In this document: positions 17,670-60,489 of the stretch, piece by piece
Layout of the letters: every line of letters starts with the position of its first letter
Position numbering within the stretch: the first letter of the stretch is position 1
From: Squalus acanthias
Lineage: Eukaryota
Assembly: GCA_030390025.1 (NCBI GenBank)
Contig: CM059432.1
Span: 44,208,001 to 44,272,000 of the forward strand
Length of the DNA stretch: 64,000 nucleotides
Direction: 5' to 3'
Translations under genes and position numbers: made by a program
Notes under the pieces: model-generated
Told to the model about the DNA's origin: nothing
The model's database searches: none
What the model saw: only the letters and a program-made list of their open reading frames with translations

Positions 17670-19893
17670 TACTTGTGTGCTGGCCGTTACCGCTGGTTTG
17701 TTGCAAATAAATGGCGGCCCCCTCTGGCATGGGACACAGCGGCCGCCATTTTGGTAAGGGCCGTAGCGCTGCTCTTGACGGTGCTGGCTCCTGAAATGTA
17801 AATGAGCAGAACGTGACGTCAATCGGCGTGCAACGCTGACTTGATGCCACATCTGCAAATTTCAATGTTCTCACTCTGTTTAATGTTGGGTACTAAGCAC
17901 ACTCAGAAAAGTGCGAGAAGCAGCCCTGCAGAGACACTGTCAGTGCTTCTTAAAGGGACACAGACATCTTTCAGTAAGTTTGGATTTAAGCTTTTGGGCT
18001 TTTCTAATATTTTATTGAAGTAGTGGCTTGGTGCAATAGATGTTACAAGTTTTTTTAAGTGTGAAGGGCATTCAGGGAGTGCTGCTGGACACTTGCAAGG
18101 CTTCGGATAGGTAAAGGAAGGCCTCTGAGAAGACAGAAAATGCTGGAACTACTCAGCAGGTTAGGCAGCATTCGTGGAAAGAGAAACAGAGTTCACGTTT
18201 CAGGTCGAGATGCTGCCTGACCTGAGTATTTCCAGCATTTTCTGCTTTTATTTCAGATTTCCAGCATCCACTCGCAGAGAGAAGAGGAGGACGCAGAAGA
18301 GGAAGAATGAAAGCCAGAGAGCCCCTTTCTGGTCGGGATATCCAGGATGCAATCATCCACCTGTGGTACCAGTGATCACAACCCCAAGTCCCCTTTCAAC
18401 ATTTGTCCCATGCCTTACCTGCCCACTGTTACTGACCATCACAGCATCCTCTTGGCCACAATGCTGAAATAAAAGCCACCACAAAGCAAACTTTCCAATC
18501 CAACTTTAGACATCTATCCATCCAATATGACAACAAGAAATCAACTAATCACCCTTGTGCATTCCCATAGTGACTGTCTTGTATGTTCCTTCGCCTATCC
18601 TAGTGATGTCACACAGTGCTACCCTAGTGGCTTCAGCGTGGCTGGTGGAAAGCTGCTGACTTTCAGTAGGGGGCACTGCAGATGGCCCTGCAGGACCACC
18701 TCGAGGACCTGGTGGCTGGGAGTGTGAAATTGAGTGATGACGTTTCTTCTTCTTTACCCTCCTCTCCCTCTTCTTGATCAAGCACTGGCTGGGCAGGCTG
18801 GATTTCTTGGGTGTGTGAAATGAGGAAGGCACAAGGGTAGAGTTGTGGTGAGGGGAGGGCAGGAAAACAAGAGCTGCATGCTTACACCATGTGCACCTTG
18901 TAAATCAGAAGAGATTGTGGGATGAGGGGCAAGTGGAATGTGAGGAGGAGGATAACGTATGATGATACCAGCAACTTGTATCCTTTCAGCCCCGCCACTG
19001 GCCAAGGGCTCAGCCATGCCCAGCCATGAATTTCCAGCACTGTCTCCTCCAAGGGTGTGAGGTGAAGCTAGGAATGTGAGGTGTGCCTCGTGATTGGTAC
19101 AGATTGATGGTAGGTGAGTGATGGTGGCGTGGGGGGAGTCATGCAATGAGCATTGCGTGAGGCTAGTGGTGCAGTTGGTAGGAGACAGCTTTTGAAGATG
19201 CATTCACTAGTCTGAGGTCATGAAGCTTCTTTGGGCACTGGAGTTAGGTTGTGGGGGTGACACTGCTGGCTTGATGGCCTTGGTGATCTGGTCCCACTTC
19301 ATTCTTTTTGAAGGGCCTCCTGGCCCCTGTGGGTAGAGGACCTCTCTTGCAGTGTTGACCCCCTGCACAAAGCTGGAGTGCTGTGTGCGTGACCCTTGGT
19401 GTTCCTTCCCTGGCTTATTGAGCCATTCTTGTTATTTTATTGCTGAAGCGCTTTTACCATTTTTTTTCCATGCAGAAGGCAGTTCAGCTTTAAGAGCTGA
19501 AGATTGCCATTTGGGAATTATTTTTAATGTTTATTTTTTTTGAAGGTTGTTGAGCTCTAAGGGCTAAAGACTGCCTATTTTAAATTATTTTTATTTTTTT
19601 CATTTTAGGAGGCAGTTCCCTTTTAAGGGACCGACACTGCTTTCTAAAATAACAGGCTAGCTTTAAGACAATGTTGCTCTTGCTGCAGGGATGCTACGGC
19701 CACGCTACATTGGGCCTCCTGCTGAGACTACCACCGGAAAACCAGTGTTGCACTCCAGGTTTTGCGTTGCGCTAATTTAAATTAGCAGGCAGCACCAAAA
19801 TACCGGTGCTGCCTGCGCTATTATTTCGAGTGGCCGTTAACTTTGGCCTACGGTGGCACCGGCAGGTTTCCAGCCTATCCCAATTTTTAGGCC
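17670..19893. mobile_element. Internally deleted Harbinger element with a Myb-like gene remnant on the minus strand
   Basis: Minus strand QCPKKLHDL at about 19215-19240; right end CAATTTTTAGGCC. Left boundary approximate. Confidence 0.6.
18134..18270. repeat. Short fold-back repeat, probably a Penelope-like terminal remnant
   Basis: CAGAAAATGCTGGAACTACTCAG..GGCAGCAT is inverted with ATGCTGCC..CTGAGTATTTCCAGCATTTTCTG. Family assignment from recall only. Confidence 0.5.
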
Positions 19894-20585
19894 TTGATCA
19901 GCAACTTCAGAATTTAAATAAAATCTAAATGAGAGACACAGTTTCACAGTGAAATTATTTAAGTTGCAAAAAATGGGCCTTTTCAGAAACCAGCTCTGAG
20001 TTGCAAGCGCTTACAATCAATAGCATAAGTCTAAGATCATACACAGCAGAAACACTTTAAAGATTGCCATTTTATGACCACCAATCACTGTTCACTTACA
20101 TTGTCCTTCACATGCTTAAATTGCAGAATTAATTACATTTTTCATTAAGATTTATAATTTTGGATGCTATAATGGTTGCCTAAACAATTCCATTTTGGTT
20201 GTGACTGCAAAATTAAAACTAACATGAATGTTTTCCAGTGTATTTCTACTATCTCAAAAAAGGTACAATTACTAGTCTATAATACTCCAGTTGATTATTT
20301 ACTTCAAAAAATGTTGAATGTGAAACATATGTAATTTTTTAGTTGTGCATTTATTACATTTGTGATGTTACTTGCTTGAATGCTGAAAAAGGTAAAGAAG
20401 CACCATAGAGTAAATAAATTGAAACCTAATCTGGTAAGAGTTTGGAAGGGCACTCTAGAGATTTCCAGTTCTTCAACTATTGCATCCCCCAACTGAAATT
20501 TTGAATGGAAGTGAGAAAACTCAAAATAAAATGGTAGAGAATTGTGTATTAATAATCTGTTAATTTTAATTTACCTCTCCATTAG

Positions 20586-20659
20586 ATTCTGCTGTATGTG
20601 TTGATTACCTACCACCGGTTTTACATCAAAATGAAGTTTCATGGAATGAAGAGAACTGG
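20586..20659 (+). CDS. C8orf88: C8orf88 orthologue coding exon 2 ((D)SAVCVDYLPPVLHQNEVSWNEENW)
   Basis: Pyrimidine tract plus attag acceptor and GTATGA donor. 74 bp, phase 1 to phase 0, exactly linking the neighbouring exons, in non-repetitive DNA. Little sequence similarity to human. Confidence 0.65.
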
Positions 20660-21324
20660 GTATGATCAATTCCATTTGTAAGATGCTTTTCTATGATCCT
20701 GTATCTTGGCCAAAATAATTTAGTTCATTTCTATTTGATGATTTAGAATGATGAAAATTATAGATATGTTCAGCTTTTGCAGGTTGTTGAAAAGGACGCC
20801 GAGTGACAGTATTTTAGTTTCTCTGGTGGCAAGTCCTTTTTTTCCAACAAATGAACTGAGTAAAGTTGCCATAAAGCTTTCTGGATCTTTTTCTTAGTTT
20901 AAGACTTTGAAAGCTAAATAATTCTTGCAGATGTGGGTAACCCATATTCTGTGTTTCTCCCAAATATGCTGCTGAGATGCATTGTATACAGCTGTTTGGT
21001 TTTTACCTTAGAATTTGAAGGAATGAGATGATGTTTTTTTTTTAAAACAAGAAACAACCATTTAACATCAACAACATGCATTTATATAGATATAAGATAA
21101 TATAAGAAGTGTCCTCAGTTGTTTCACAAATACTGATAAGGAAAATAGACTCTGAGGCAGGAACGTAAAGGTTAAGAGTGGTGACATAAAACTTGGTCAC
21201 AGTTTATTATGGTACCACTTCCAAATTTTAAGGACAAAAAATTTGAATAAGTCTTTTTATCTGTGACGTCCGTCAAATAATCTTTATCTCTTTAGATGAA
21301 ACATAACACTGTAATATATATTTA

Positions 21325-22051
21325 GGGGGAAAAATTGAGTCGCGCCCCCTTTGGGGTGCTAACTTCGCCGGGGCACTACTTTTAGCGCCCCGAAAAAATT
21401 AGTGCCTCCGCGGCCGGAATTCATCGTTAGCGCCCCAAGAGGGAAGCGGGGTGCTACTGGAAGCGCCCCGCCTCCCTCTTGGGGCGCTGTGAGGGAATAT
21501 CGCGGTGCTACGTGCCACAGCGCTGTGGCACATCGTGCCGCGGTACTGCAGGCCTTCCTCCCCTTCTTAAAGGGGAGGGGCCTTGCGCAGCGCGACCCGG
21601 GGCCCAGCTGGGCCACCAGGGATCAGGAGTGCCGGCAAAAGAGCCCGGCACTCAAGAGAAGTGCTGGGCTCATGGAGCGCAGCCGGCACTCCGCGGGGGG
21701 GGGCTGCTCAGGAGGCCAGGGACGGCAACGGGGGCAGGTGCTGGCAGGTGGCCAGCAACAAAAATGGCCGCCAACACCTTGCCTTTAATTAGTGCCGCCC
21801 CGGCCGCAGGTAGGCCCCCCTGACCCCGTCGGATGTAAGTCAGGGGGTGCTACCGAAGATCACGGCCGGGGCGCGAGCGGGGCGCTGCGCACGGCAATTA
21901 TGTCATCGCCGGCGGCGCAGCACTGCGGGGCGCTAATCGTTACTGTTGCCGCTAACCTCCTGCTGAATTTCACGGGAGGCGTTGGCGGCACCGTGACCAT
22001 GCGATAGTTGCTTTGCGCCCCGTTAGTGCAAAGCAACCGAATTTTTCCCCA
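21325..22051. mobile_element. GC/CpG-rich non-autonomous Harbinger-type element
   Basis: TIRs GGGGAAAAATT / AATTTTTCCCC with TTA on both flanks; many TAGCGCCCC-like subterminal repeats. Related to 46202-46988. Confidence 0.75.
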
Positions 22052-22254
22052 TTAAAGTCTTGTGTATTGCGGCCTTTTTTGCCCATATTAAGCTTATACT
22101 TTTTATATTTTATAATAGGCACTCCTGTTTGTCTTTCACATTGTAGTTGCTTGCTTTCTGCTACTAGATGGCATAGTGGTGCAAGTCATTCCAATCTGCT
22201 CACCATTTTTTTCTCTTGATTTTTAAGTGCTTTCTTCAGCATTTTTAGATCTTT

Positions 22255-22733
22255 TAACTCGCATCAAGTCCCGTTCACCCATCACCCCTGTGCTCGCTGA
22301 CCTACATTGGCTCCTGGTTAAGCAGCGCCTCGATTTCAAAATTTTCATCCTTGTTTTCAAATCCCTCCATGGCCTCGGCCCTCCCTATCTCTGTAATCGC
22401 CTTTAGCCCCACAACCTCCCCCCCGAGATATCTGCGCTCCACTAATTCTGCCCTCTTGAGCATCCCGGATTATAATCGCTCAATTTTGGTGGCCGTGCCT
22501 TCTGTTGCCTAGGCCCTAAGCTCTGGAATTCCCAGCCTAAACCTGTCCGTCTCACTACCTCTCTTTCCTCTTTTAAGACGCTCCTTAAAACCTACCTCTT
22601 TGACCAAGCTTTTGGTCACGTGCCCTAATTTATCCTTATGTGGATCGGTGTCAAATTTTTTGTCTTAAAATACTCCTGTGCAGCATCTTGTGACGTTTTA
22701 CTACGTTAAAGGTGCTATATAAATACAAGTTGT
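22255..22733 (+). mobile_element. L2-clade LINE 3' end
   Basis: SPITPVLADLHWLLVKQRLDFKI..GGRAFCCLGPKLWNS; tail GGTGCTATATAAATACAAGTTGTT. Confidence 0.88.
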
Positions 22734-22804
22734 TTAAAACTCTGTTTTTTTGGGTACCCAGGAGTCCCCTCCCCCTAGCGGTCCTCTCACCAGCACAACT
22801 CTTT

Positions 22805-23170
22805 TCATAGAATTTTACAGTACAGAAAGAGACCATTCGGCCTGTGCCAGCTCTCTGAAAGAGCTATCCAATTCAACCCAATCATTTAAGAAAAAAATCT
22901 ATTATTTATTCACTTCCCTTTTAAAAACTATTATAGATTTTCTTCTATGTTCTAACAGCAATTTGTACAACAAAATTCTCCTGATATTTTCCTTTTTGTT
23001 TTTTGGTAGTGCACTTTTTTGCCTCTAGTTACTGACTTGCCAACCAGTGGAAATAGTTTTATTCCCAATTTGCCTTATCAAAACCCTGTAATTTTGAATA
23101 CCTCTACCTGATCTCGTAACCTTCTTTGTTCTAATTAAAAGTGCCCCAATTCTCTACTCTTTCTTTATAA
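22805..23170 (-). mobile_element. Degraded CR1 3' fragment
   Basis: CATAGAATTTTACAGTACAGAAAGAGACCATTCGGCC tail. Confidence 0.6.
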
Positions 23171-23549
23171 CAAGAGCCAGCCTATTTTTTTTTAGTTGAA
23201 TTAGAAGGGTGTCAGCCTTCAGCCTGTGAGAATTTGTGATTTTATTTGCTCTTCCAAAACACTTTGAAACAAACTAGAGATTGGATTCTCAAAGCTCTAT
23301 TTCAGGCAAGTTTCACATTTAAAATTGTTTTTAGCCATTTATGCCATTTCTCCGGGTGTTTCGCTGATTTTGTGCCAAAGTTATGGCAGGTGATCTGGTG
23401 AACTCCTGCAGAAATTCCGGGTGTTAATCTGTGATTGGATTTTGCTCCCTGCATTAGTTCTTGTTGCTATGGAGGGTATCATTTTTTTTTCTTGAGTCTT
23501 TCCCCACAATTGATGTTTGCTGCTAGTATTGAAGTTGCAGCAAACAAAT

Positions 23550-25330
23550 TATGAGGATAGGAATTTATTTAGGTCTTCCTATAGAACTCCACGATTTAGA
23601 GGAGGAGGAGAAGTTCAGGAGGAGATGCCAAATATGGGTGCCATTACACCTGAACATTAATTATGCATCCATCATTATCCCAGAACCCACATTTCTAAAC
23701 CATGACTTGTCTACCTGGGCGTGTCAGGTGAGACCTGTCTTCACGGTATCTGCTTCACTCGAAAGGCTTTTAGAGAGAGAGCTATTCCATCTACTCTAGG
23801 CTTGCCTGCAGACAGTTTCTACCACATGAATGGCTCTTTCAGTACTTCTGACAGTTACCATAGCATTAAGCTCTTATGATACCCTTCCAAGTCACCACAG
23901 ACCACATTTGCCAGATCAGCTTTCAGCCCAAAGATGCATCAAGCGAGGGATAGATGCTGTGTTTCTAAGGCGCAGCACCTTCATCACATTCTATGTGGAA
24001 AGGAGGCACACAATTTTAGCCAGGTATCAGAGTTCCTAATAGTCCAGAACATAATAGGTAGCACCCATGTGGGCATCAACCACACAGCCTCCGTGAACAG
24101 AGGGGTTGCTATTCCATTAATGTTGAGGTAATGTTTGACCACTTATGCAGGTAGCTCTCATAATGAATGTGGCAGTCCACAATGCCTGTTATTTGAAGGC
24201 TCAGATGGCTGCTGGGAAACCAAGGTTATCCATTCAGACTGATGATTCCACTGAGGAAACTGCTGAACAGCAGCAGCATGTAAATACAAGTTACTCATCC
24301 CTCAACCAGAATTGCTATAGAGCACACCATTGGGATGCTAAAGAAAAGATTTGCTGTTTGAACCACTCAGGTGGGTTACTCCTATATAGCCCAGCAAAGG
24401 TGTCCAAAATAATCATGGTCTGCTGCATGCCACATAAATTCATAAAAGTAAGAGGAGTAGGCATACAGCAGGATAAATGGAAGAAGTAGAGGTGCAGCTG
24501 GGTAGATTGTTTCAGCAAGCAATTCCAGGAATTTCCAAATCCAATCCCTGCACAAGTATTGCAGATGAACGAAACACCACAACATGTTGTACTATCTATC
24601 TCCTTTCTCTTAACTGTTACTTCACTATCCTACCAACACTTCTCAACACTAAGGAGAAATAAAGTGCTCAAATTATTTGATGTTTCTAGTGGTGACTGCT
24701 GTACTTCCTTTTGATAACTCTATGATCTAGTGCCTTACCTGCCACTCTATCTAAGTACTCCTGCAGTGGGATCAGAAAGTGTGGCGGCAGACCTCTGTTG
24801 TACATTGTGGGCCTCGAGATGGAGGTGGTTTTGCATCTAAAGGTGCAAGGTCATTAGATGGCTCCATTACAGCTGGAGCCATGTCTCTGGCAGCCAGTGC
24901 CTGCTCACCACATGACACTTCTTCAGTCATTTGTGTGGAGTTTGCTGGGTTGGATGAATGTGTGGTTACCTGCAGAGGAAGTTGCCTCATTGATCCCTTC
25001 TCCTGCCATGCTCCATGTAGGATGACTTGCAAGCTGAGTGAGAGAAGACTATAGGGTATCACCTGAGGAATGTGAATCCCAACATCAGAGCTCTGATTTC
25101 CCACCCTGCCAAATAAAGCAATGACCAACTACTGTAATTTGGAGTTGAAGTTCTCCATAGCCCCATTTGTGAGAGAAACTACCCAAGCTTGTTCCATCTG
25201 TCCTTTGGCAGTCCAGTACAGAGGGCCTTGAAGTGCCACGTTGTGGTGAATTGCATTTGTGAAAATCCTTGTTACACTATTACTGAGAAGTCAGAGGTGG
25301 ACGTGAGGCCTGTGGAATTGGGCAGGTAGG
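23550..25330 (+). mobile_element. Highly degraded Harbinger element (transposase on +, partner-gene remnant on -)
   Basis: Residual VTIALSSY, IIGSTHV and CCLNHSGGLLLYSPAKVSKIIMVCCMPH matching the HARBI1-like motifs at 26040-27150. Confidence 0.55.
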
Positions 25331-25574
25331 ACTCTGTACTTGGCACTGAACTCCCGATTCTGCAGAAGTAGTAGTTTTAGCAGTTTTTCAGGCCGCGCTT
25401 CTATCATACTCTGACTTAATTGATAGTTACAAAATTATATTAATTAATTATAATTAGCCACATGATGAATTTCCCATGGTTGTCTGCAGTGCAGCTCCTG
25501 CTTTGTTTACTAGAAGACCTCCTAACTGGTAGTTTTCAGGCACCAAACAGCTTTCTAACCTTCCAATATGACAA

Positions 25575-25637
25575 CCAGGAAATGTGTGCACATTTCTAGC
25601 CAGGAAGTGTGTGCACATTTCTAGCCAGGAAGTGTGT
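25575..25637. repeat. 25-bp tandem repeat (2.5 copies) containing a palindrome
   Basis: Unit CCAGGAA(A/G)TGTGTGCACATTTCTAG at 25575, 25600 and 25625. Confidence 0.85.
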
Positions 25638-26039
25638 TGCTCGCCATACTGGATCGGGCTTCTCCAGAAGCGTCCAGAGCTCACACGAGAAGAATTTAAG
25701 AGTGAATAACTTATTTAAATTATGGTCCTGCGCTTCTTGCAGGACCCTTTTCCAGTTTTGGTATGCCCCAGTGCCTGATTTGTCACGTGCTGAACTCGCC
25801 CAGCAATACGTGACGCTAACCGGCTGGAAAGACCCCTCATCAGTGCTATTTAAAGAGATCAAGCGGAACTTACAGGTTAGTTGCTGGTTTGCCATTTCAG
25901 ACTGCTGGTTAACTTGGGCCTCTTTTGTCGTGTTTTATTACTCTGGAAAGTTCACTTTGTCTGAAAAGAACTAGATTTTGCTGGTGTTGCACTGTTGTTG
26001 GCTGCCTCATAGACAGTTTGACTGCAGTCGTGGGTGGTT

Positions 26040-27150
26040 GCGTAGGGCTGCCTTCGGGGCTGGGGGATTCGCGAGAGCAGCAAGGAAGACAGCAGAGAAC
26101 AGGAACAGCAGCCGTAAGAGGGAGGAGGAGGGCACAGTGCAGGAGGCCATATCCACAGCGGGTTTTCAGGGAGTGCTTCTCCTACATTAACTTTACTGAG
26201 GAGCAATGTCTGAGGTGCCTTCACTTGACAAAGGAGGCTGTCACCGAACTATGTCACCTGCTGCAGCTGCAACTCGAGCTTCGCACCAGGTCATGGACAG
26301 CACTGTGGCTGTCAAGGTCATTCTGGCCCTTAACTTTTATGCCACGGGCACCTTTCAGGCTGCAGCAGGTGACATTGTCGACATTGTCAACATATCACAG
26401 TTTGCAGTCTACCGCTGAGGTCACTGAGGCGCTCTACACCAGGAGGAGCACCTACATCTTATTCCCCATGGACACAGCTATGCAGGATAGGAGCATACTA
26501 GGCTTCGCTCGCATAGCAGACTTCCTCATGGTGCAAAGTGCAATAGACTGCACCCACATTGCTTTACGTGCTCCCTGACATTTTTATCATTTGTAAGGGA
26601 TTCCACTCCCCAACGTACAACTAGTTTGTGACCATGGGCAGTGTATCATGCATGTCTCTGCTCGATATCCTGGCAGCAGTCATGACTCTTTCATCCTGCA
26701 CTAGTATTCTGTGCTGCCTTTATTCCAACCAGGCTGTCGAGTTGCAGGCTGGCTACTTGGCGACCAGGGATATCCCCCTTTGGACATGCCTCATGACTCC
26801 TGCCAGGAACCCAGACATCGCTGCACAGTTGACCTACAAAAAGAGCCATGCTGCCACCAGAAACATGTTGACCAAACAAATGGCGAGCTCAAGCAACGCT
26901 TCCACTGCCTGGACCATTCTGGAGGAGCTTTGCAGTGCAACTCTAAGCGGGTATCTAGATTTGTGGTCATCTGCTGCATGCTCCCCAATCTTGCCATCTT
27001 GAGGGACCAGCTTTTACCACAACCTGGGCAACCAGAACAGCAGCAGGCACAGGAGGAGGATCATTAAGAGGAGGAGGATAGGCATCGACTTCCAATGCTA
27101 CTAGCTGCTGGAACTCTCGGAGACCAGCTAATCAAGGAATGCTTCACCTA
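26040..27150 (+). pseudogene. HARBI1-like Harbinger DDE transposase, frameshifted
   Basis: VAVKVILALNFYATGTFQ, AIDCTHIALRAP, NVQLVCDH..ARYPGSSHDSFIL, GWLLGDQGYP, LKQRFHCLDHSGGAL..CCML. Confidence 0.92.
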
Positions 27151-27399
27151 AACGATCCCTCAAATCCCCAATACACCAACAGTCCTGCAATCCTTACCAC
27201 CTTCCTTGCTACCCTATCCAATTGTCTTCTTTCACTATAGCCTTATGGGTCGTACCCTCCCTTCACTCCAAGTATAAACACTAACACCAAATCTAGAACA
27301 GAAAAACAAATTTATCAAAGGACTTAGTACATCCTTATATAACAGTTAACGGAAATAATTAAAAATCACCTTTATGGGAGCCCTTAGTGCCTGTCTTGC

Positions 27400-29215
27400 A
27401 TGCTCATTTCCCTATCCTAGTGCTACTATGAAGTGTTTCCCCAGTAGCTACAGCTTGGGAGGTGGAAGACTGCTGAGCTGTCATTGAGGACACTTCAGAT
27501 CAATGAGGGAACTTTCTCTGCAGGTAACCACACATACATCCAGCCCAGCAAGCTCCGCAAATGATTGAAGACTCCAAATGGTCTGCTGCGTGACCTCAAG
27601 CAGCACTGGGCTTAGAGGGCCTCTCTCTAGACTGCATTATCTCATCATGAACTGGCCCAGCTGGCTGTGTGACTCTAACGAGGGCACTGGCAGAGTGGCT
27701 GGAGGAAGAGCAGGCTTGCTGTCCTCCTGAGAGAGGACTGCAGGTGGCTCTCCCATGTAGTCAAGGCTGCTCTCCTGGGATGGCGCCTCCGCACACCTAC
27801 AGTTCTGCATGAAAAAGGAGTGCAGGACTGCTGAGACACTTCGGAGGCCTCTGTCAACATTGGCACCTAGAGCCAAGCTGGCAGCCATCTGAGCTTCCAT
27901 GGCAGTAGTGTGTGTTGCCATGGAAGCTGTCAGAGCTTTCAGCAGAGGCTCCATCATTGTGTTGATGGAGCTGACCGCTCATACCATGTTGTACTGTATG
28001 GTTTCCACACTCTGCACGAACCTGACACAAGTTAGAGCTGGATTTCTTCATTCTCTGCCATTGTGTGCAAACTCGCTGGCAAGCAACCAAGTGCACCTAG
28101 CATCTCCTGGTAAATGCCCATCGGCCTTTGTCAGTAGGCTGGGCCGTCGAAGTCAGCATCGGAGTCTTTTGCAGCAGAGCTAGTTTGTGATCTCACTCTC
28201 TGGCGAGCTGGCACCTGTGGCGTCCTATCCCCCTGCCCTAGCTCCTGCACACTGTGTGCGATGATTCACTACGTGAAGACTCCTCCTCTAGCCTAGCCTC
28301 TAAAGTGCGCGTGGTGCTAGTATATGAGCTGGTGCTTCCGAGGGTCAGATTGACTGATGCCTCGACTTCCAGAAGGCTGGCCTCCTCTTCCTTCACTGGA
28401 AGAGGTATCTCCACATCTTCACCTGAAATGAAAGAGAGGGACGAGGGGTAGCTTTCAGTGTGATGTGAGAGCCGAGAGAGAGAAGCGGATGTTGTAAGAA
28501 TCTGCAGTTTGCCCAGTAGGGTGAGTTAGAGGTAAGGGAAAAAGAAGAAAAGGTGCGAGAAAATTCTATGTGGCATCTCCTCCAGCGTTCCTAGTAGCCA
28601 CGGCCATGACTCTTACCCCTACCAGCATGCTTTCTTCGAGGGGTGAATGTGTGCAGATGGGCCCGGTCTTTTTTAGTGGCAGCTTGTGCTCAGGAGTTTC
28701 ACGCCACCTTCTCCTGCAAGAAAGAAGTTGAGTGCGATAGTGAGAATCTTGTGAGGAGTTTCAAGAATGTGCCTGTAATGGTTGAATATCTGGTATGCAG
28801 TGTGTCAAATGTGAGTTATGGGGAAGTGAGTTTTGGAGTAGTGGTGAGTGTGAGGATAAGGAGGTGTAGGGAAGTGTGGTGCAGTGATTGTAGGAGAGAG
28901 TAGAGGGAGGGGAGAGAGGTGGGGGAGGGGAGTATTGTGAGTAGTGAGGCTGTAGATGGTGGGGTGTAGCATGGAGTAATAGAGCAGTATCTGACCTTGA
29001 CATCTGTAGTCAGGTCATTATATTCTTGGAGCTAAGCTCATGGCATTGACTTGCTCTGCCTGCCATTTCTTCTTACTGCCACCATAGTTGATGCCTGGAG
29101 GGCTTCCTACCCCCCTGGGGGAAAGAGGATATACCTCCTCCTGTCAGTGCTTGGACCAGTGCCTCTAAGGCAGCAAAGGTGAATCTAATGGCATGATCTG
29201 TAGGTTTAGCAGCAA
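27400..29215 (-). pseudogene. Spliced Myb/SANT-like partner gene of the same Harbinger, convergent with the transposase
   Basis: IRFTFAALEALVQA start. Acceptor ttcttgcag|GAGAAG at about 28712 is conserved with about 45670. C-terminal ORF 27637-27957 is homologous to 44611-44874. Confidence 0.7.
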
Positions 29216-29354
29216 TTTTTTCTCTCGAAAGAAACTTCCTCTGTTGCCTGCAACTAGAGTGCACCTCCCCTTTTAAGAGATGCTGACTGCCTTTAAGTGG
29301 TGTCCGTGAAGTCTGATATCCGGGCCACCAAACAGGCGGCAGCCAATGCGTAAA

Positions 29355-29662
29355 GTTCACTTTGTGTAGTAAAAAAGATTAGGAAATCTAAGGCCAAGAA
29401 ATTCGATATTGCCCAAAACAGGTGTGCATAGGGTGGGGCGTGCACTGCACGTACCTGTTAGCGTCGACTCAGACAGCATGCGTACTGCAGTTAGAGGTGA
29501 CTGCACGCCTGAATCAGCAGGCAGCACAAATATTATGTACCGTCTGCGTCAACACTAACAGGCGCGTGCAGTGCTTGCCACACCCCCTGCCTGCCTGTTT
29601 TGGGCAATAGTGTATTTCTAGGCCTTAGATTTTCCTAATCTTTTTTACTACGCAAAGTGAAC
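29355..29662. repeat. About 308-bp near-palindrome made of Harbinger termini plus an inverted-duplicated flank
   Basis: 29355-29422 is the reverse complement of 29594-29662 with few mismatches; looser pairing continues inward to arms of about 125 bp. Confidence 0.85.
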
Positions 29663-52997: not shown

Positions 52998-53425
52998 ATT
53001 GTGTAGATTGGGCTTATACTCTCTGGAGTTTAGAAGAATGGGAGGGGATCTCATTGAAACATATAAGATTTTGAGGGGGATTGACAGGGTAGATGCTGAG
53101 AGGCTGTTTTCCCTGGCTGGAGAGTCTAGAACTAAGGGGCATAGTCTCAGGATAAGGGGTCGGCCATTTTAAGACTGAGATGAGGAGGAATTTCTTCACT
53201 GAGGGTTATGAATCTTTCCAATTCTCTACTCCAAAGGGATGTGGATGCTGAATCGTTGAGTATATTCAAGGCTGAGATAGATATATTTTTGGGCTGTAGG
53301 GATATCAAGATATATGCGGATCAGGCGGGAAAATGGAGTTGAGGTCGAAGATTAGCCATGATATTGAATGGCAGAGCAGGCTCGAGGGACCATATAGCCT
53401 ACTTTTGCTCCTTTTTATGTTCTTA
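52998..53425 (+). mobile_element. CR1 3' fragment
   Basis: RLGLYSLEFRRMGGDLIETYKIL and 3' tail. Confidence 0.88.
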
Positions 53426-53793: not shown

Positions 53794-54521
53794 GGCCCAA
53801 AAATTAGTCTGAGTACGCACTGTACTCTCGCGTATTCTGTCTCCAATTGCTGGTTTTCTGCATGCACTGCGCATGCGCTGAAAACCGGCACTTGGTGAAC
53901 TCAAAAGGGGGCGGTTCCTAAGTGAACCGCGTGCGCGCTACAGGCTGCGCGCACGCAGTGCACTTAGTGCTTTGAACGCGCAGGTAAGCATGGAAGATTT
54001 TACACATAAAGAAAGGAGGCGTAAGACCCTCTTTTAACAAGGTAAGTAGTTAATTAAGTATTTTAAATTTTTTTCAACAGGTTTATCTTTTTTAGAGACT
54101 TTAAAGAAAGGTAAGTTTATTTTTATAACTTTTAAAAAGATTTTAAATTTTTTCAAAAATTTAATTTTTTGTTTAAAGTGGTTAATTTATTTAACTATAC
54201 TTATTTTATTAATGTGATGGTTTTTTTTAAATTTAATTGAGGTTTAGCTGTTCTTTTGGGGGGGGTATAGATTCATAGCTTTGACAGCCCTTGCTGTCAA
54301 AACTATGAATGAAAGATGGTGTGCTGCCATTGGCTCTAACTGAATCACGTGATCCCACAGCTCGCACGAATTAACTGCGTCTGTGGGATACGCACACACT
54401 GCACAGCTGCAGCCTTGAAACTAAAGTTCGTGTGAGCTCGGAAGGAAAAGGCAGGCGCGCAGTGAGATATCGCGGGGAAGCCTTACCCCCGCAGGAAGGC
54501 TCCGTCTTTAATTTCTGGGCC
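53794..54521. mobile_element. Non-autonomous Harbinger-type element (728 bp) with AAT duplication
   Basis: TIRs GGCCCAAAAATTA / TAATTTCTGGGCC. Reads tgtAAT[...]AATatctcc versus the empty site tgtAATatctcc at about 14355. Confidence 0.9.
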
Positions 54522-54932
54522 AATATCTCCAAGTTTGCAGACGACACAAAGCTGGGTGGGCGTGTGTGCTGTGAGGAGGATGCTGAGAAACTCCAGGATG
54601 ATTTGGACAGGTTGGTTGATTGGGCAGAAGCATGGAAGATGCAATATAACGTGGATAAATGCGAGGTTATCCACTTTGGTGTCAAAAACAGGAAGGCAGA
54701 TTATTATCTGAATGGCAATAGATTGGGAGAAGGGGAAGTGCAATGAGACCTGGGTGTCATTGTGCACCAGTCGCTGAAGGTAAGCATGCAGGTGCAGCAG
54801 GTGGTTAAGAAGGCAAATGGTATGTTGGCCTTCGTAGCGAGAAGGTTTGAGTACAGGAACAAGGATGTCTTGCTGCAGTTGTACAAGGCCTTGGTGAGAC
54901 CACACCTTGAGTATTGTGTGCAGTTTTGGTCG

Positions 54933-55126
54933 TGTGGTAACACAATACAGCTTCCTGTGACTCGAACTTTATTGCATCACTTCCTGTGATTAGTCCAGGA
55001 TAAATACTGGACTGATCAGTTGGATCCTGGAGAGGCATAGAGTAAGACCTCTTTTGTATGTAGCACCTTTTTAGTTGATTAAAGCTTACTTTAAGTTCAC
55101 CACGCGTAAGGCTCATTCTTACGACA
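54933..55126 (+). repeat. 5' LTR (194 bp)
   Basis: Direct repeat of 59180-59372, differing by 2 substitutions and one 1-bp indel. Confidence 0.97.
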
Positions 55127-55127
55127 A

Positions 55128-55138
55128 TTTAATCAACT
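55128..55138 (+). promoter_or_regulatory. Non-tRNA primer-binding site TTTAATCAACT (candidate self-priming site)
   Basis: Lies 1 nt after the LTR, has no TGG, and is the perfect reverse complement of LTR 55073-55083 AGTTGATTAAA. Confidence 0.8.
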
Positions 55139-55204
55139 TTGAAAAACTTCGCACTCAAACTTTTTGGACGAACTCGGAACTAAGGATCCAGGGAATCACC
55201 CATC

Positions 55205-58200
55205 ATGGAAAACATCCTTAAACCATCGCGTCTTGACTTGGACCCAAACACCCCAGCAGCCGGTAAGGTGTGGAAACACTGGTATCGCACGTTTGACAAT
55301 TTTCTTGAATATTGTAAGGCTGATGATGACTCAAAGTTGCGGATACTCATCAACTGTGTCACCCCGAATGTATTTCAGTATGTGGAGGAATGGGACAGTT
55401 ACGAGGAGGCAATTCGGACGCTTAAGAGACTATATACTAAGACACCGAATGAGGTCTATGCCAGACATCTACTAGCTACAGCCCAACAAGGGCCGGAGGA
55501 ATCCATTGATAAATTCCTCCAAGAGCTTCGCAGACTTAGTATGGACTGTAACTTTCGGGCGGCCTCAGCTGAGCTGTACCGTGAAGAAATGATCCGTGAT
55601 GCTTTCATCTGCGGGCTTGCCTCCCCATTTATACGCCAGCGTCTACTGGAAAGTAAGACACTTGAGCTTCAGAGAGCTTATGACATGGCTTGCTCTCTAG
55701 ATCTGGCAAAAAGAAATGCAGACCTTTATACAGTGCCCAGACCTCGGTCTACTGCCTTAACTACAGTCAGGCAATTTAAGAGGCCACAGGTGAACTCTAT
55801 TAGGCAGGACTTTATCCCTGACGATCAATCTAATGACTTCACTGATGAAGAGGATGATGACCCCACTGTGGCAGCCTCTTGGCAATCTAAGAAATGCTTC
55901 TTTTGTGGTGATGAGTTTCACCCTCGGAAATTCTGCCCTGCTCGCAATGCGTTTTGCAGTCATTGCGACAAAAAGGGTCATTTTGCAAAGGTTTGCCTAT
56001 CTAGAGCCTCTACGAGGGCTTATCAAGCTAAGTCCTACCGAACTGCCCCGGTAAGGGCCTATCAAGATGTTCCGGCTAAAATCTATCGTGCTTCCTCTCG
56101 GGTTTTCTCTGGAAGAAACACACCTAGAGTTTCAGCCACTCTTTGTGCAACGACACCAATTACAGCTGCTTGTCCTCAGAACCTATTCCATGCAGCCACA
56201 AAAGCATCAATTAATGGACATACTTTAGATGCCTTAATTGACTCAGGTAGCACTAATAGTTTCATTAGGGAACAGATTGTTGCAGAGTTAAAGCTACATG
56301 TTTTCCCATCAGACCAGGCAATTGCGATGGCTCAGTCATCACTTAATACCAGAATTTCTGGCTTTTGTATGGTTGAAATAACACTTAATGGTCACAGGTA
56401 TCCCTCCACCCGGCTTTCGGTGCTCAAGGACTTATGTAGTGATCTTATCTTAGGGCTGGATTTTCAAAAGCAGCATAAGAAGCTCACCATTGAGTTCGGC
56501 GGATCCAAACCTGAACTCACTATTTCTAATATACGACCTCGATTACCGTTCTGTGCATTGTCAGCAGCTTCACTGGATGAACCCTCACTGTTTGCCAGTA
56601 TCCCTCCTCGATGCAAACCGATTATAACAAAGTCACGACGTTTCAGTCAGGAAGACCAGTCTTTTATTGCGGCTGAGATTTCTCGGCTTTTAGCAGAGGA
56701 TATCATCGAGCCTTGTTCGTCGCCATGGCGCGCCCAGGTCGTTATTGTTAAGAACCCTCTACAACCTCACAAGAAACGGCTGTGCATTGACTATTCACAG
56801 ACCATCAATCAATATATGGACTTGGACGCATACCCATTGCCGCGCATCGATGATATGGTTAATAAACTGGCTTAGTACACGGTGTTCTCAACATATGATC
56901 TGAAAAGTGCCTATCATCAGGTACCCTTGAAGGTCTCAGACAAGCAGTATACGGCCTTTGAAGCCAATGGACGGCTGTATCAATTTCGTCGCCTCCCCTT
57001 TGGGGTCACTAATGGAGTGGCTGTCTTCCAGCGAGCAATGGATGACCTGGTCAAACAGGAAGACTTGAAGGATACGTTTCCTTATCTGGACAATATTACT
57101 GTCGCAGGTCGCAATCAGCGGGAACATGACGCCAATCTCCAACGATTTTGGGATGCACTCCAGCACCGTAATTTGACATTAAATGCGGCTAAATCCATTG
57201 AGTCACAACCAACCATCAACATCCTTGGCTATTGTGTGGGCAATGGCATCATTAAACCTGACCCTGAAAGGCTTCGCCCACTCCAAGAACTCCCGCCACC
57301 TAAGAATCCGGCCTCCTTGCGCCGGGCCCTCGGCCTGTTTGCATACTATGCTAAATGGATTCCTAACTTTTCGGACCGAATCCAACCTCTACTGAAGGCC
57401 AGCACATTCCCACTAGACACAGCGGCTGTTGCAGCCTTTAACCTCCTGAAAAAACAGTTGGAGAAAGCGGCTCTTCACTCCATCGATGAGAGTCTTCCTT
57501 TTGTTGTTGAGTGTGATGCCTCGGAGGTGGCGATCTCGGCCACTCTGAATCAGGAAGGTCGTCCGGTGGCATTTTTGTCCAGGACTTTTCAAGGGGCTGA
57601 GCTACATTATCCTCCAGTCGAGAAAGAAGCTACAGCCATCATAGAGGCAGTACGGAAGTGGAGTCATCTCCTAGCTCGCCAGCACTTTACCTTAATCACG
57701 GACCAGCGATCGGTCGCCTTCATGCTCGATAATCGAAAACGGACCAAAATTAAAAATAATAAAATCCAGCTTTGGCGGCTGGAATTGGCCTCTTTTGGTT
57801 ACACCATCCACTATCGACCTGGCAAGGAGAATGTGGCTCCGGATACCCTCACACGAGCATTCTGCTCCGCCATGGCACCCTCTACGCTCGTAGACATCCA
57901 TGATGGGTTGTGTCATCCGGGCGTTACTCGCATGCTACACTTCGTGCGGTCCCGAAATCTCCCATTCTCTACCGGGGATGTAAAGAAGATGTGCTCGGAC
58001 TGCAGAGTCTGTGCGGAATTGAAACCTCAGTTTTTCCGCCCCTCGGGTGGTATACTCATACATGCGACCCAGCCAATGCAACGGCTTAGCATCGATTTTA
58101 AGGGGCCGTTGCCCTCTTCAACTCGCAACACTTATCTATTGACCATGGTCGATGAGTATTCCCGTTTTCCGTTTGCCTTTCCCTGCCCCAATATGCTGAC

Positions 58201-59161
58201 GACCACGGTTATCAGCTGCCTTGAGCAGGTATTTGCTTTCTGTGGCATGGCATCCTATGTTCATTCGGATCGGGGCCCTTCTTTTATGTCAGGAGAACTC
58301 AAGGCCTATCTCTCGGAACGGGGTATTGCTGCCAGCAGAACGACGCCTTATCATCCGGTCGGGAATGGGCAAGTCGAGCGTTTTAACGCTATCATCTGGA
58401 ATGCGGTACATCTGGCTTTGAGATCTCGGGGCCTACCCAACCAGCAATGGGAAGCTGTACTTCCAGACGCATTACACTCCACACGGTCCCTCCTTTCGAC
58501 CGCCACAAATACGACGCCTCATGAACGGTTCTTCCGATTTCAGCGTCGCTCATCCTATGGGATATCTCTCCCGTCGTGGCTAACTACACCGGGACCAGTG
58601 CTACTCCGAAGATATGTCCGGGCGTCTAAGAATGACCCCCTGGTAGATGAAGTTGAGCTCACTGACGTCAACCCTACCTACGCCTATATTCGGTATCCTG
58701 ACGGTCGGGAATCTACCGTGTCATTGCGGGATCTGGCTCCCTGCCCGCCGAAACATAGAGGGACACCAGGGGATGATATTGTACCAGACACATCTCTGGG
58801 CTCGCCAGGTGCCTCTCATCACGATCTGGATCTGACGCCGGCTGGTACCTCACTCCAGCGTACCGACCTGGGGCAGACTGACTATGAGCCCGTCGGGGCT
58901 CGCACGCGCAGCCACGATCCACCCCGTACCGTACGCTCGGAAACGGATCTGCCACAGCCCTGCCCGACACCCGTTCGGGCACCAGTACACAGTCAGGATC
59001 GTCCTGACCCCTCACAGAGCGGGCTGGATCACTCGGACTCTGGTCCACGGCCCGCGGCGGGTAAACGGGCTAGGGGCCCTCTCCCGCTACGAGAACCCAA
59101 ACGGGTGCGGCTCTCCCTCGTCCAGCAGCTACGAAATGGAGGGAGCATCCCGGCCTCCTAA
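55205..59161 (+). pseudogene. Single-frame gag-pol polyprotein (about 1318 aa) with one in-frame TAG at 56873-56875
   Basis: ORFs 55205-56875 and 56882-59161 share a frame. Two CCHC knuckles (55895-55996), protease ALIDSGS, RT (DLKSAYHQ, LPFG, YLDN), RNase H (ECDAS, EKEA, TDQ) and integrase HHCC + D,D,E (SIDF, HSDRG, QVER). Confidence 0.95.
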
Positions 59162-59167
59162 TCTTTT

Positions 59168-59179
59168 GGGGGGGGAGAA
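59168..59179 (+). promoter_or_regulatory. Polypurine tract
   Basis: GGGGGGGGAGAA abuts the TG of the 3' LTR. Confidence 0.9.
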
Positions 59180-59372
59180 TGTGGTAACACAATACAGCTT
59201 CCTGTGACTCGAACTTTATTGCATCACTTCCTGTGATTAGTCCAGGATAAATACTGGACTGATCAGTTGGATCCTGGAGAGGCATAGTGTAAGACCTCTT
59301 TGTATGTAGCACCTTTTTAGTTGATTAAAGCTTTCTTTAAGTTCACCACGCGTAAGGCTCATTCTTACGACA
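59180..59372 (+). repeat. 3' LTR (193 bp)
   Basis: Direct repeat of the 5' LTR; ATTAAA at 59324-59329. Confidence 0.97.
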
Positions 59373-60489
59373 GGTCGCCTTATCTGAGGAAGGAGGTTCT
59401 TGCCATGGAAGGAGTTCAGCAAAGATTCACCAGGCTGATACCTGGGATGGCAGGAATGACGTATGAGGAGAGATTGGGTCGATTGGGCTTATACTCGCTG
59501 GAGTTTAGAAGAATGAGAGGGGATCTCATTGAAACTTATAAAATTCTGAAAGGACTGGACAGACTAGATGCAGGAAGGATGTTCCCGATGGTCGGGGAGT
59601 CCAGAACCAGGGGTCACAGTCTAAGGATAAGGGGTAAGCCATTTAGGACAGAAATAAGGAGGAATTTCTTCACCCAGAGAGTGGTGAACCTGTGGAATTC
59701 TCTACCACAGAAAGCAGTAGAGGCCAATTCATTAAATATATTCAAGAAGGAGTTGGATATATTTCTTGAGGCTAAAGGGATCTGGGGAGAAAGCAGGGAC
59801 AGGGTTCTGAATTTGGATGATCAGCCATGATCGCATTGAATGGCGGAGCAGGCTAGAGGGGCCGAATGGCCTACTGCTCCTATCTTCTATGTTTCTATGT
59901 TAACGTAAGCTGCTAGATGTTAGGAGGAAGTGGCGTCAAAGAACTGAAGATTTCATTTGGCTTGTTAATGTAATTATTGCTGGCATAAGTACTTGACTTG
60001 AACTTGTCGCATTTTCCAAGTCTCCCACATCAAACGTATTCCTCCCTCAGAAATCCAGAAACTGCAGATTGTTTGTCTGTAATTATAGTTTATCTGCTAC
60101 AACTAAGCTTCAAAATACAACAATTTATCTACAATTTATATTGAATTCAGTGCTCTACTAATGTTGCAGTTGGCTGAGGAGGAATAGTGAGAGCAGGAAA
60201 GAGCTACCATGATGTCAGATAGCACACAAATTGTATGTAGCACATCAGGTCTACTGTATCAGGCACAGCTACCTTGGAATGACTAGAGAGCAATGCCTTA
60301 GGAGGTTGTGATAGATCTGTGCCATGTCCTCAGTAAAGACCTGCAGACAAAATCAAACACCTGTACAGCACTGTGGCAGGCTGTCAAAGTGTTCACTGCC
60401 CTCAATTATTTGGTGTTGGGCTCTTTCCAAACTAGCACTGGTAACATCTGCAATGTCTGCCAGTTTCCAGGTCATAGATACATCACTAC

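What the first reader, a model, noticed from the sequence alone, without database searches (positions are those of the whole stretch)
55073..55138. tRNA-independent self-priming layout in a Mag-like Gypsy element of a cartilaginous fish
Seen: the 5' LTR ends at 55126 and there is no TGG/tRNA PBS. After a 1-nt spacer, TTTAATCAACT (55128-55138) matches LTR AGTTGATTAAA (55073-55083) 11/11 in reverse complement. A55073 lies in an initiator-like TTAGTT, with a TATA-like (T/A)GTAAGA about 31 nt upstream. The enclosed loop holds a U5 hairpin, CGTAAG(55105-55110) / CTTACG(55118-55123). Known: S. pombe Tf1 primes minus-strand synthesis with the first 11 nt of its own transcript, which anneal to the PBS and are released by RNase H; this mode is associated with the Tf1/sushi chromovirus group. 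Inference: this element self-primes even though its Gag has Mag-type tandem CCHC knuckles and its integrase shows no chromodomain, suggesting an independent or wider origin of self-priming. I cannot tell whether this family is already catalogued.
Basis: partly seen in the sequence, partly recalled or inferred. Interest (0 to 1): 0.88.

Follow-up and report, generated by a model that had tools for sequence, protein, structure and literature searches.

The report
Self-priming Gypsy retrotransposon lineage in animals
This jumping gene and its relatives in many animal groups carry, where a tRNA primer site should be, a short sequence that pairs with the element's own repeat, so they probably start DNA copying with their own RNA, a trick known from yeast Tf1.

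Summary
Window 54933-59372 is a 4,440-bp Ty3/gypsy element with 194-bp LTRs, TSD GGTCG and one TAG stop in RT. One base after the 5' LTR, TTTAATCAACT (55128-55138) is an exact reverse complement of LTR bases 55073-55083. No TGG/tRNA-type primer site is present.

The pairing is conserved. Of 29 testable metagenome relatives (42-75% Pol identity), 21 have an exact 10-18-nt LTR/primer-site duplex at the same place, with different sequences. On 18 distinct sequences, 96.6% of cells pair, 9 of 13 pairs change on both sides, and 0 of 500 shuffles reach this.

Tf1-type self-priming is the best reading (about 0.75). The transcript start, the RNase H cut and the primer itself remain unshown, because the one raw RNA run laid no reads.

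"Mag-like" could not be tested, as no named references were available. In a limited tree the lineage is a separate long branch, outside the chromodomain-bearing rows. My literature searches found self-priming predicted for Tf1/sushi, plant Tcn1 and copia TAR, and not for this lineage.

This scan has noted self-priming layouts before on other DNA (diatom copia, a moss chromovirus, a fungal TRIM), but not on this lineage.

Verdict: real; a new member of a known kind.

The parts
54928..54932 (+). target-site duplication GGTCG, left copy
   Evidence: the empty-site form is seen in contigs (table 7)
54933..55126 (+). 5' LTR, 194 bp, TG..CA
   Evidence: direct repeat with 59180-59372: two substitutions and one 1-nt indel
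55073..55083 (+). LTR arm AGTTGATTAAA, the proposed self-primer; its last six bases are ATTAAA, a poly(A)-signal-like hexamer
   Evidence: 11/11 complement of 55128-38; homologous arm in 21 of 29 relatives; covariation
55084..55096 (+). hairpin 1, stacked directly on the long-range helix (GCUUA/UAAGU)
   Evidence: minimum-energy fold; a hairpin directly after the arm is predicted in most of the 17 folds
   Evidence: minimum-energy fold and centroid
55127..55127 (+). 1-nt spacer A between LTR end and primer site
   Evidence: A in 16 of 18 distinct relatives, T in one, G in one
55128..55138 (+). primer-binding site TTTAATCAACT, complementary to the element's own LTR
   Evidence: 1,967 exact arm-plus-site junctions in the genome
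55205..59161 (+). single gag-pol frame: Gag with two CX2CX4HX4C knuckles, aspartic protease, RT, RNase H, integrase. It is interrupted by one in-frame TAG at 56873-56875 in RT
   Evidence: best solved relative is Ty3 Gag-Pol, E 1.3e-44
59168..59179 (+). polypurine tract GGGGGGGGAGAA
59180..59372 (+). 3' LTR; it carries the second copy of the arm at 59319-59329
59373..59377 (+). target-site duplication GGTCG, right copy

Best explanation
The element is a young copy of a very abundant, compact Ty3/gypsy retrotransposon that primes minus-strand DNA synthesis with its own RNA instead of a tRNA.

Proposed mechanism:
1. In the genomic RNA, an LTR-derived segment near the 5' end (55073-55083, ending in ..TTAAA) folds back. 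It pairs with the complementary 11 nt that begin one base after U5 (55128-55138).
2. The two hairpins between the arms bring them together.
3. The element's RNase H cuts after the last paired base (A55083).
4. The freed 3'-OH is extended through the spacer and U5 to give strong-stop DNA.
5. That DNA transfers to the repeat at the RNA's 3' end.
6. Plus-strand synthesis copies the RNA primer, so the primer site is rewritten from the arm at every cycle. This would keep the two perfectly complementary.

Shown: the layout, its exact position, and its conservation with compensatory change.

Inferred: that the arm lies in the transcript, the cut, the extension, and whether pairing is within one RNA or between two packaged RNAs.
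For: (1) Exact 11/11 complement placed 1 nt after the LTR end. Chance is about 1e-3.

(2) Of 32 metagenome relatives with a Gag N-terminus hit, 3 were too near a contig end and 29 were examined. Of these 29, 21 have an exact 10-18-nt stem whose 3' arm starts right after the LTR's terminal CA plus one base. Four more show mutated remnants (L081, L083, L089, L094). Four show nothing (L055 and L056, apparently one element on two contigs, plus L100 and L108).

(3) On 18 distinct sequences (A2), a 13-bp helix has 96.6% of 234 cells paired. Nine of 13 pairs change on both sides (41 cells). The covariation score is 0.521 against 0.147 shuffled (0 of 500). With the partner slid by 1-3 columns, pairing falls to 20-50% and the score to 0.02-0.065.

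(4) Only 1 G-U is seen among the 234 cells. This fits a templated DNA-level copy better than selection on RNA folding alone (inference).

(5) All 17 folded relatives have the helix in the minimum-energy structure, with z from -2.9 to -5.6.

(6) There is no room for another primer site. The primer-site start lies 13-44 nt from the Gag ATG in 20 of these 21 relatives and 80 nt in one. No TGG follows the LTR.

(7) The family is successful. There are 2,361 LTR-end/primer-site junctions with up to 3 mismatches (control 0). Many copies have uninterrupted 1,325-aa frames. At one tested pair, 1,967 junctions have both partners intact, 7 are changed in the arm only, 8 in the site only, and 0 in both.

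(8) The same logic is experimentally established for Tf1/Tf2 and proposed for Tj1 (PMC4600332 and PMC5341516, passages).
Against: - No RNA evidence. The one raw poly(A) RNA-seq run laid 0 reads. The three contig runs look like DNA and show no starts or ends. It is therefore unknown whether the arm is at, or even within, the 5' end of the transcript.
- No conserved TATA box at a fixed distance.
- The helix is 10-19 nt in relatives, not a constant 11.
- The conserved 3' part of the arm resembles a poly(A) signal, so part of the conservation may serve another function.
- The tRNA scan was incomplete. Only Lys, Cys and Gly tRNA genes plus two doubtful calls were recovered from the genome (18 distinct sequences). 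The longest complement to the primer-site region was 6 nt.
- The within-family test for paired double changes was uninformative: 0 doubles, with about 0.03 expected.
- Cleavage and extension are untested.
Confidence: 0.75

Rival explanations
1. The duplex is a structural RNA element and not the primer. It would mask the poly(A)-signal-like hexamer of the 5' repeat, or serve packaging or dimerisation. The complement exists only downstream of the 5' LTR, so the signal would stay free in the 3' LTR. Reverse transcription would be primed by something else.
For: The arm ends in a poly(A)-signal-like word in most of the 18 distinct sequences: ATTAAA in 8, AATAAA in 1, and GTTAAA, TTTAAA or TTAAAA in 7. 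The complement is leader-specific. Occlusion of a 5' poly(A) signal by a hairpin is known in retroviruses (recalled, not checked here).
Against: - The 3' arm starts exactly one base after the LTR's terminal CA in 18 of 18, which is where a primer must sit to define U5.
- There is no other candidate primer site in leaders as short as 13-44 nt.
- Pairing is almost purely Watson-Crick, with 1 G-U in 234 cells.
- L031 has a canonical AATAAA plus a GT-rich tract later in the LTR. The arm therefore need not be the signal.
- The two roles are not exclusive.
Confidence: 0.12
2. A host tRNA, tRNA fragment or other host small RNA binds 55128-55138, and the match to the LTR is incidental.
For: The tRNA set tested was incomplete. 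Half-tRNA primers exist in copia elements (PMC6317226, passage).
Against: - The primer-site sequence differs between families and always follows the family's own LTR, whereas tRNAs are highly conserved among animals (general knowledge).
- There is no TGG start.
- No Rfam family matches the element at E up to 1, and no tRNA gene lies in the window.
- The longest complement among 18 distinct tRNA sequences is 6 nt.
Confidence: 0.03
3. A chance inverted repeat with no function.
For: Eleven other places in the 64-kb window give an 11-nt match in the same geometry.
Against: The position is exact (chance about 1e-3). The repeat recurs in 21 of 29 relatives with different sequences, and no shuffle reaches the covariation (0 of 500).
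Confidence: 0.01

Closest known systems
Tf1 and Tf2 (Schizosaccharomyces pombe) and Tj1 (S. japonicus): self-primed Ty3/gypsy elements
   Same: No tRNA primer site. [quoted passage not shown] The RT-associated RNase H is proposed to free the primer (PMC4600332 and PMC5341516, passages). An 11-nt duplex, as in the window, is what is described for Tf1 (recalled; Levin 1995 is not held). Hairpins lie between the arms.
   Different: The lineage differs. No chromodomain is found. LTRs are very short (about 120-245 bp in relatives). The element is compact at 4.4 kb, and Gag has two CCHC knuckles. The arm ends in a poly(A)-signal-like hexamer, a 1-nt spacer is conserved, and the helix is 10-19 nt in relatives. 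Nothing is shown experimentally here.
Tf1/sushi group of fungi and vertebrates; plant Tcn1 clade (predicted self-primers)
   Same: Self-priming is inferred from LTR/primer-site complementarity (PMC6317226, PMC6934838, PMC2864245, passages).
   Different: Those are chromoviruses. In the RT-RNase H tree the present lineage (15 rows) is split by a 100% SH-aLRT branch from all 74 other rows, including the 6 that carry a chromodomain. Butler et al. 2001 was seen only in reference lists.
Ty1/copia TAR lineage (Houba, Osr-1), predicted self-primers
   Same: This shows that self-priming has been proposed outside Tf1/sushi (PMC6317226, passage).
   Different: A different superfamily, in plants.
Steamer and the Mag C-clade / 'Steamer-like' elements of aquatic animals
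   Same: Compact single-ORF Gypsy elements with LTRs under 200 bp, spread across aquatic phyla (PMC8905726, passages).
   Different: Steamer has a 12-nt tRNA-Leu primer site, TGGTGTCAGAAG (PMC8905726). None of the 80 relatives has that motif after an LTR. The 9-nt core was found only at unrelated places. A protein named K02A2.6-like, a name that paper links to the C-clade, is only 31% identical over 58% of the query.
Jule (Xiphophorus), a vertebrate Mag-family element
   Same: About 4.8 kb, about 200-bp LTRs, single gag-pol (recalled from the abstract of Volff et al. 2001; seen here only in reference lists).
   Different: Its primer site and its relation to this lineage could not be checked, because neither the paper nor the sequence was available.

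Membership tests
Self-primed LTR retrotransposons (mechanistic class defined by Tf1) | No tRNA-complementary primer site next to the 5' LTR | tested here: met
   The sequence after the LTR is A+TTTAATCAACT, with no TGG. No Rfam hit. The longest complement to 18 distinct tRNA sequences is 6 nt, but only three isoacceptor families were available.
Self-primed LTR retrotransposons (mechanistic class defined by Tf1) | The sequence adjoining the 5' LTR is complementary to a segment of the element's own LTR (R region) | tested here: met
   11/11 in the window. 10-18 nt in 21 of 29 relatives. Covariation: 0 of 500 shuffles reach the observed score.
Self-primed LTR retrotransposons (mechanistic class defined by Tf1) | The complementary segment is the 5' end of the mRNA | tested here: inconclusive
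   The raw RNA run laid 0 reads and contigs show no ends. No conserved TATA.
Self-primed LTR retrotransposons (mechanistic class defined by Tf1) | RNase H cut after the duplexed 5' segment and extension from it | not testable with these tools
   Needs biochemistry or sequencing of cDNA intermediates.
Self-primed LTR retrotransposons (mechanistic class defined by Tf1) | Additional stem-loop(s) between primer and primer site (U5-IR-like) | tested here: met
   Two hairpins in the window and at least one inner stem in each of the 17 folds. Their homology to the Tf1 structure was not tested (Lin and Levin 1998 not held).
Chromoviruses, including the Tf1/sushi group | Chromodomain at the integrase C-terminus | tested here: not met
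   No PF00385 at E up to 0.01. None in the precomputed Pfam lists of the 120 listed relatives.
Chromoviruses, including the Tf1/sushi group | RT/RNase H groups with chromodomain-bearing elements | tested here: not met
   Tree of 89 rows: the 15 lineage rows are one side of a 100% SH-aLRT branch of length 0.84+0.13, and the 6 chromodomain rows lie on the other side. Limits: quick search, outgroups only from proteins over 1,332 aa, no named Tf1 or sushi.
Mag lineage of Ty3/gypsy (Mag, SURL, Jule, Steamer) | RT phylogeny with named Mag-lineage references | not testable with these tools
   No named reference could be fetched. Ten distant relatives looked up carry no useful names. The K02A2.6-like protein is 31% identical.
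Mag lineage of Ty3/gypsy (Mag, SURL, Jule, Steamer) | Compact single gag-pol ORF, two CCHC knuckles, short LTRs ending ..AYAACA | tested here: inconclusive
   Single frame and two knuckles. LTRs are 194 bp. Relatives end ..ACAACA or ..ATAACA, like the Mag A/C motifs in Table 3 of PMC3601003, but the window ends ..ACGACA. These traits are not exclusive.
Ty3/gypsy (Metaviridae) | Order PR-RT-RH-IN, RT closest to Ty3 | tested here: met
   Pfam order. Best solved structure is Ty3 Gag-Pol 7q5b, E 1.3e-44.

The most novel reading that the evidence does not exclude
A deep, chromodomain-less Ty3/gypsy lineage that moves between aquatic animal phyla acquired self-priming independently of Tf1/sushi. It built the primer's 3' end from its own poly(A) signal. 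One duplex would then both prime reverse transcription and hide the 5' copy of the signal. Because the primer is copied back into the primer site at each cycle, the pair evolves in concert and frees the element from any host tRNA. This could help it establish in hosts as different as cnidarians, crustaceans and sharks.
Probability: 0.3. Interest if true: 0.7.

Novelty: new member of a known kind. Interest (0 to 1): 0.55.

Why it matters
Self-primed reverse transcription is proven only in fission-yeast elements and is usually treated as a peculiarity of the Tf1/sushi chromoviruses. Here the same layout is a conserved, covarying trait of a large animal lineage without chromodomains. One family of that lineage has about two thousand near-identical junctions, and many open frames, in a 3.7-Gb genome.

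Three consequences follow:
- It widens the known range of the mechanism.
- It offers natural compensatory variants for testing the mechanism.
- Annotation pipelines that look only for tRNA primer sites would find no primer site in such elements.

Independence from host tRNAs may also bear on the lineage's spread across phyla.

Tried and rejected
- DNA search of the genome with the LTR found nothing, not even the window itself, because the words are too common. A pattern search was used instead.
- RNA evidence: 16 runs were listed. I laid X16, X1, X5 and X10 on 54850-55450. X16 (raw RNA) gave 0 reads. The others are contigs that cover the whole LTR and its junctions and give no starts or ends. 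There is therefore no test of the start site.
- tRNA scan: the Rfam tRNA search returned 63 scored matches, nearly all of one kind. Six smaller stretches added Cys and Gly only.
- Other families of the lineage in this genome: a search with a ray protein (P0125) returned the same family.
Shorter gapped patterns gave 1,967 canonical junctions, 7 arm-only, 8 site-only and 0 double. This is uninformative.
- Naming the clade failed. The protein atlas gave only generic names. The cluster look-up of 10 distant relatives gave no useful names. Levin 1995, Lin and Levin 1998, Arriagada 2014 and Metzger 2018 are not held.
- The Steamer tRNA-Leu motif was sought in the 80 loci. Its 9-nt core occurs only at places unrelated to an LTR end.
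- No Rfam family matches.
- Literature searches for self-priming with SURL, Mag, Jule, Gypsy/metazoa, Nematostella, shark, zebrafish or crustacea found no report for this lineage. The library lacks most subscription journals and Repbase Reports.

Full report
**The element.** Window 54933-59372 is a complete LTR retrotransposon of 4,440 bp.
- Its LTRs (54933-55126 and 59180-59372) are 194 bp. They begin TG and end CA, and differ by two substitutions and one 1-nt indel.
- They are flanked by a 5-bp target duplication GGTCG. A polypurine tract GGGGGGGGAGAA abuts the 3' LTR.
- The element interrupts the reverse-transcriptase frame of a LINE. Contigs of other LINE copies in public runs read ..GGTCG|CCTTATCTGAGGAA across the empty site, which fixes the LTR limits independently (table 7).
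- One frame runs from ATG 55205 to 59161 and is broken once, by TAG at 56873-56875.
- It encodes a Gag with two CX2CX4HX4C knuckles, an aspartic protease, RT, RNase H and integrase. The best solved relative is Ty3 Gag-Pol (E 1.3e-44). It is therefore a Ty3/gypsy element.
- No chromodomain is detected.

**The observation.** It holds exactly as written.
- AGTTGATTAAA (55073-55083) and TTTAATCAACT (55128-55138) are perfect reverse complements. A55127 is the only base between the LTR end and the second arm, and the match extends on neither side.
- There is no TGG.
- The RNA from 55073 to 55140 folds into the 11-bp helix enclosing two hairpins, at 55084-96 and 55105-23. Energy is -15.4 kcal/mol, z -4.15, and 0 of 200 shuffles fold as well.
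- As an empirical null, I treated every window position as a mock LTR end. An 11-mer starting 0-3 nt later has its complement in the preceding 194 nt at 72 of 63,780 positions (0.11%). These form 12 clusters, one of which is this site.

**Abundance.**
- The 38-nt LTR-end/primer-site junction occurs 2,361 times in the 3.7-Gb genome with up to 3 mismatches. The reversed control occurs 0 times.
- A gapped pattern requiring both arms exactly finds 1,967 junctions.
- Many copies have uninterrupted 1,325-aa frames.
- Some copies stand in LTR-internal-LTR arrays with 4,247-bp spacing.
- The family is therefore young and was recently active. The window's copy is one of the broken ones.

**Relatives.**
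- The RT-RNase H-integrase part has 1,633 homologues at E up to 1e-3 among 8,000 scored candidates.
- The 120 listed are 58-89% identical. They come from a shrimp, sea anemones, a soft coral, Hydra, a copepod, a tunicate, a mussel and a catshark, and from many metagenome contigs of about 4 kb.
- A scan of JGI metagenome contigs gave 424 confirmed relatives, of which the best 80 were kept (L031-L110, 42-75% identity).

**Conservation of the pairing.**
- Self-comparison found flanking repeat pairs in 19 of the 80 loci. Where the pair was complete, the sequence after the 5' LTR was again complementary to the LTR.
- For a fuller count I anchored on the Gag N-terminus. Thirty-two loci had a hit, 3 lay too near a contig end, and 29 were examined.
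- Of the 29, 21 have an exact stem of 10-18 nt whose 3' arm begins right after ..CA plus one base.
- Four more are recognisable but mutated (L083 matches at 14 of 16 positions; L089 has a deletion; L094; L081 keeps only the site). Four show nothing (L055 and L056, apparently one element on two contigs, plus L100 and L108).
- The arm sequences differ between families. Examples are AGTTGATTAAA, TTTAGCTAGTTAAA, TGAGTCGTTTAAA, TAAGCTGTTAAAA, CTTTTGTTTGTTAAA, TAAGTTGAATAAA and ATTATGTTGCTGATTAAA. In each case the primer site follows its own arm.

**Formal covariation count.**
- Before counting I dropped four rows that repeat another family: L049 (= L040), L072 and L084 (= L038), and L037 (a one-mismatch copy of L040). 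That left 18 distinct sequences including the window.
- On their alignment (A2), a 13-bp helix has 96.6% of 234 cells paired.
- Nine of 13 pairs change on both sides (41 cells). The covariation score is 0.521 against 0.147 +/- 0.023 for shuffles, and 0 of 500 shuffles reach it.
- Sliding the partner by 1-3 columns drops pairing to 20-50% and the score to 0.02-0.065.
- Positions 1-11 from the LTR-proximal end pair in 17-18 of 18. Pairing fades after position 13.
- Seventeen of these sequences were folded (L039 left out). All 17 have the helix in the minimum-energy structure, with z from -2.9 to -5.6.

**What it most likely does.**
- The site is where a minus-strand primer must anneal to define the U5 end. 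It is one base from the terminal CA in 18 of 18.
- The primer-site start lies 13-44 nt from the Gag ATG in 20 of the 21 relatives and 80 nt in one. That leaves little room for any other primer site.
- The site's sequence tracks the element's own LTR, not any invariant host RNA.
- This is the geometry of self-primed reverse transcription shown for Tf1/Tf2 and proposed for Tj1. A 5' segment of the mRNA anneals to the primer site, and the element's RT/RNase H frees it as primer (PMC4600332 and PMC5341516, passages). That the Tf1 primer is the first 11 nt is recalled, because Levin 1995 is not held.
- One inference adds weight. In this mechanism plus-strand synthesis copies the RNA primer, so the site is rewritten from the arm at each cycle. 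That predicts strictly Watson-Crick covariation, and only 1 G-U occurs in 234 cells.
- I put this reading at about 0.75.

**What is not shown.**
- The transcript start is unknown. The only raw RNA-seq run offered laid no read on the stretch. The three contig runs cover the whole LTR and behave like DNA.
Only 3 of 18 sequences have a TATA-like word 28-31 nt before the helix.
- The tRNA test is partial. Only Lys, Cys and Gly genes (plus two doubtful calls) could be retrieved, giving 18 distinct sequences with a longest complement of 6 nt. The covariation argument carries the exclusion of tRNA.
- The within-family search for paired double changes was uninformative: 0 found, about 0.03 expected.

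**Main rival.**
- The conserved 3' end of the arm is a poly(A)-signal-like word: ATTAAA in 8 of 18, AATAAA in 1, and GTTAAA, TTTAAA or TTAAAA in 7.
- A leader-specific complement could hide that signal in the 5' repeat only.
- This may be a second role of the same duplex. As the sole role it does not explain the exact placement or the lack of any other primer site. I give it about 0.12.

**Which lineage.**
- Among proteins longer than 1,332 aa, lineage members match at 49% identity or more over the whole query (a whipworm, an electric ray, a cockroach, a hagfish).
- Apart from two partial matches (47-56% identity over 59-64% of the query, one of them a liver-fluke protein), everything else then drops to 34% or less over about 58% of the query.
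- That remainder includes a protein named K02A2.6-like (31%), one named Tf2-6 (33%) and chromodomain-bearing proteins (27-34%).
- An exhaustive search of 50%-identity representatives shows colinear full-length relatives down to 37-38% identity, again on contigs of about 4 kb.
- In a quick maximum-likelihood tree of the RT-RNase H part (89 rows, 335 columns), the 15 lineage rows are separated from all 74 others by a long branch with 100% SH-aLRT support. The 6 chromodomain rows are on the other side.
- The lineage is therefore not a chromovirus by the tests available.
- Whether it belongs to the Mag lineage could not be tested, because no named Mag, SURL, Jule or Steamer sequence could be brought in. 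Shared traits (single frame, two knuckles, short LTRs, LTR ends ..ACAACA or ..ATAACA like the Mag A/C motifs in Table 3 of PMC3601003) are suggestive only.
- Steamer proper, a Mag C-clade element, has a tRNA-Leu primer site (PMC8905726, passage). That motif is not at any LTR end here.

**Novelty.**
- In the passages I read, self-priming is described or predicted for:
  - Tf1, Tf2 and Tj1;
  - the Tf1/sushi group 'from fungi to vertebrates';
  - the plant Tcn1 clade;
  - the Ty1/copia TAR lineage.
- Five further searches that combined self-priming with SURL, Mag/Jule, Gypsy and metazoa, or animal host names found no report for a chromodomain-less animal Gypsy lineage.
- The library lacks most subscription journals and Repbase Reports, so prior description cannot be excluded.
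- Earlier notes of this scan record self-priming layouts in diatom copia elements, a moss chromovirus and a fungal TRIM. None concerns this lineage, and none matches by sequence. I did not test them.
- I file the finding as a new member of a known kind. The mechanism class is known. The lineage, its breadth and the poly(A)-signal-like primer end are the new parts.

Noticed in passing
window 57083-57094 (RT motif C); alignment A1: The RT catalytic motif reads YLDN, not YxDD, in the window and in 18 of 22 aligned relatives with residues there. Four have DD. More distant relatives and outgroups have YxDD. The family's abundance shows that such an RT works.
   Followed up: partly
window 56876-58555 against P0007, P0013, P0050, P0061, P0113, P0125: Pol is 73% identical to a Nematostella protein, 70% to Xenia, 66% to a Palaemon protein and 62% to Hydra. 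In the tree the window sits next to Nematostella and Palaemon rows, while the catshark and electric-ray rows lie in another subclade. This pattern suggests transfer between phyla.
   Followed up: partly
genome G000, for example C1:566510, 570757, 575004: Copies of the element stand in head-to-tail arrays sharing LTRs, with 4,247-bp spacing.
   Followed up: no
genome G000: Many copies of the family have uninterrupted 1,325-aa gag-pol frames, whereas the window's copy has one TAG in RT.
   Followed up: partly
window 54483-54932 and 59373-59830: The element is inserted in the RT frame of a LINE (..LEYCVQFWS | PYLRKEVLAMEGVQ..). A related LINE piece gives the 81% repeat 52998-53169 / 59473-59644.
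   Followed up: no
window 57908-58540 (integrase): The integrase part matches foamy-virus (PFV) integrase best among solved structures (E 6.6e-19). The Ty3 Gag-Pol match covers only RT-RNase H.
   Followed up: no
window 54933-59372: Public runs under five different organism codes hold 50-78% of the element's sampled 31-mers, so near-identical copies occur under several species labels.
   Followed up: no
L044 and L064 (metagenome contigs): Contigs of about 4.1-4.2 kb begin and end with the same 123-184 nt inside gag and hold one LTR. These are circularly permuted assemblies, as expected from tandem arrays, one-LTR circles or LTR collapse.
   Followed up: no
window 17737-29598, 41036, 44864: Eleven other places give an 11-nt inverted match in the same geometry in the null scan. 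They were not examined, and only one short tandem repeat lies nearby.
   Followed up: no
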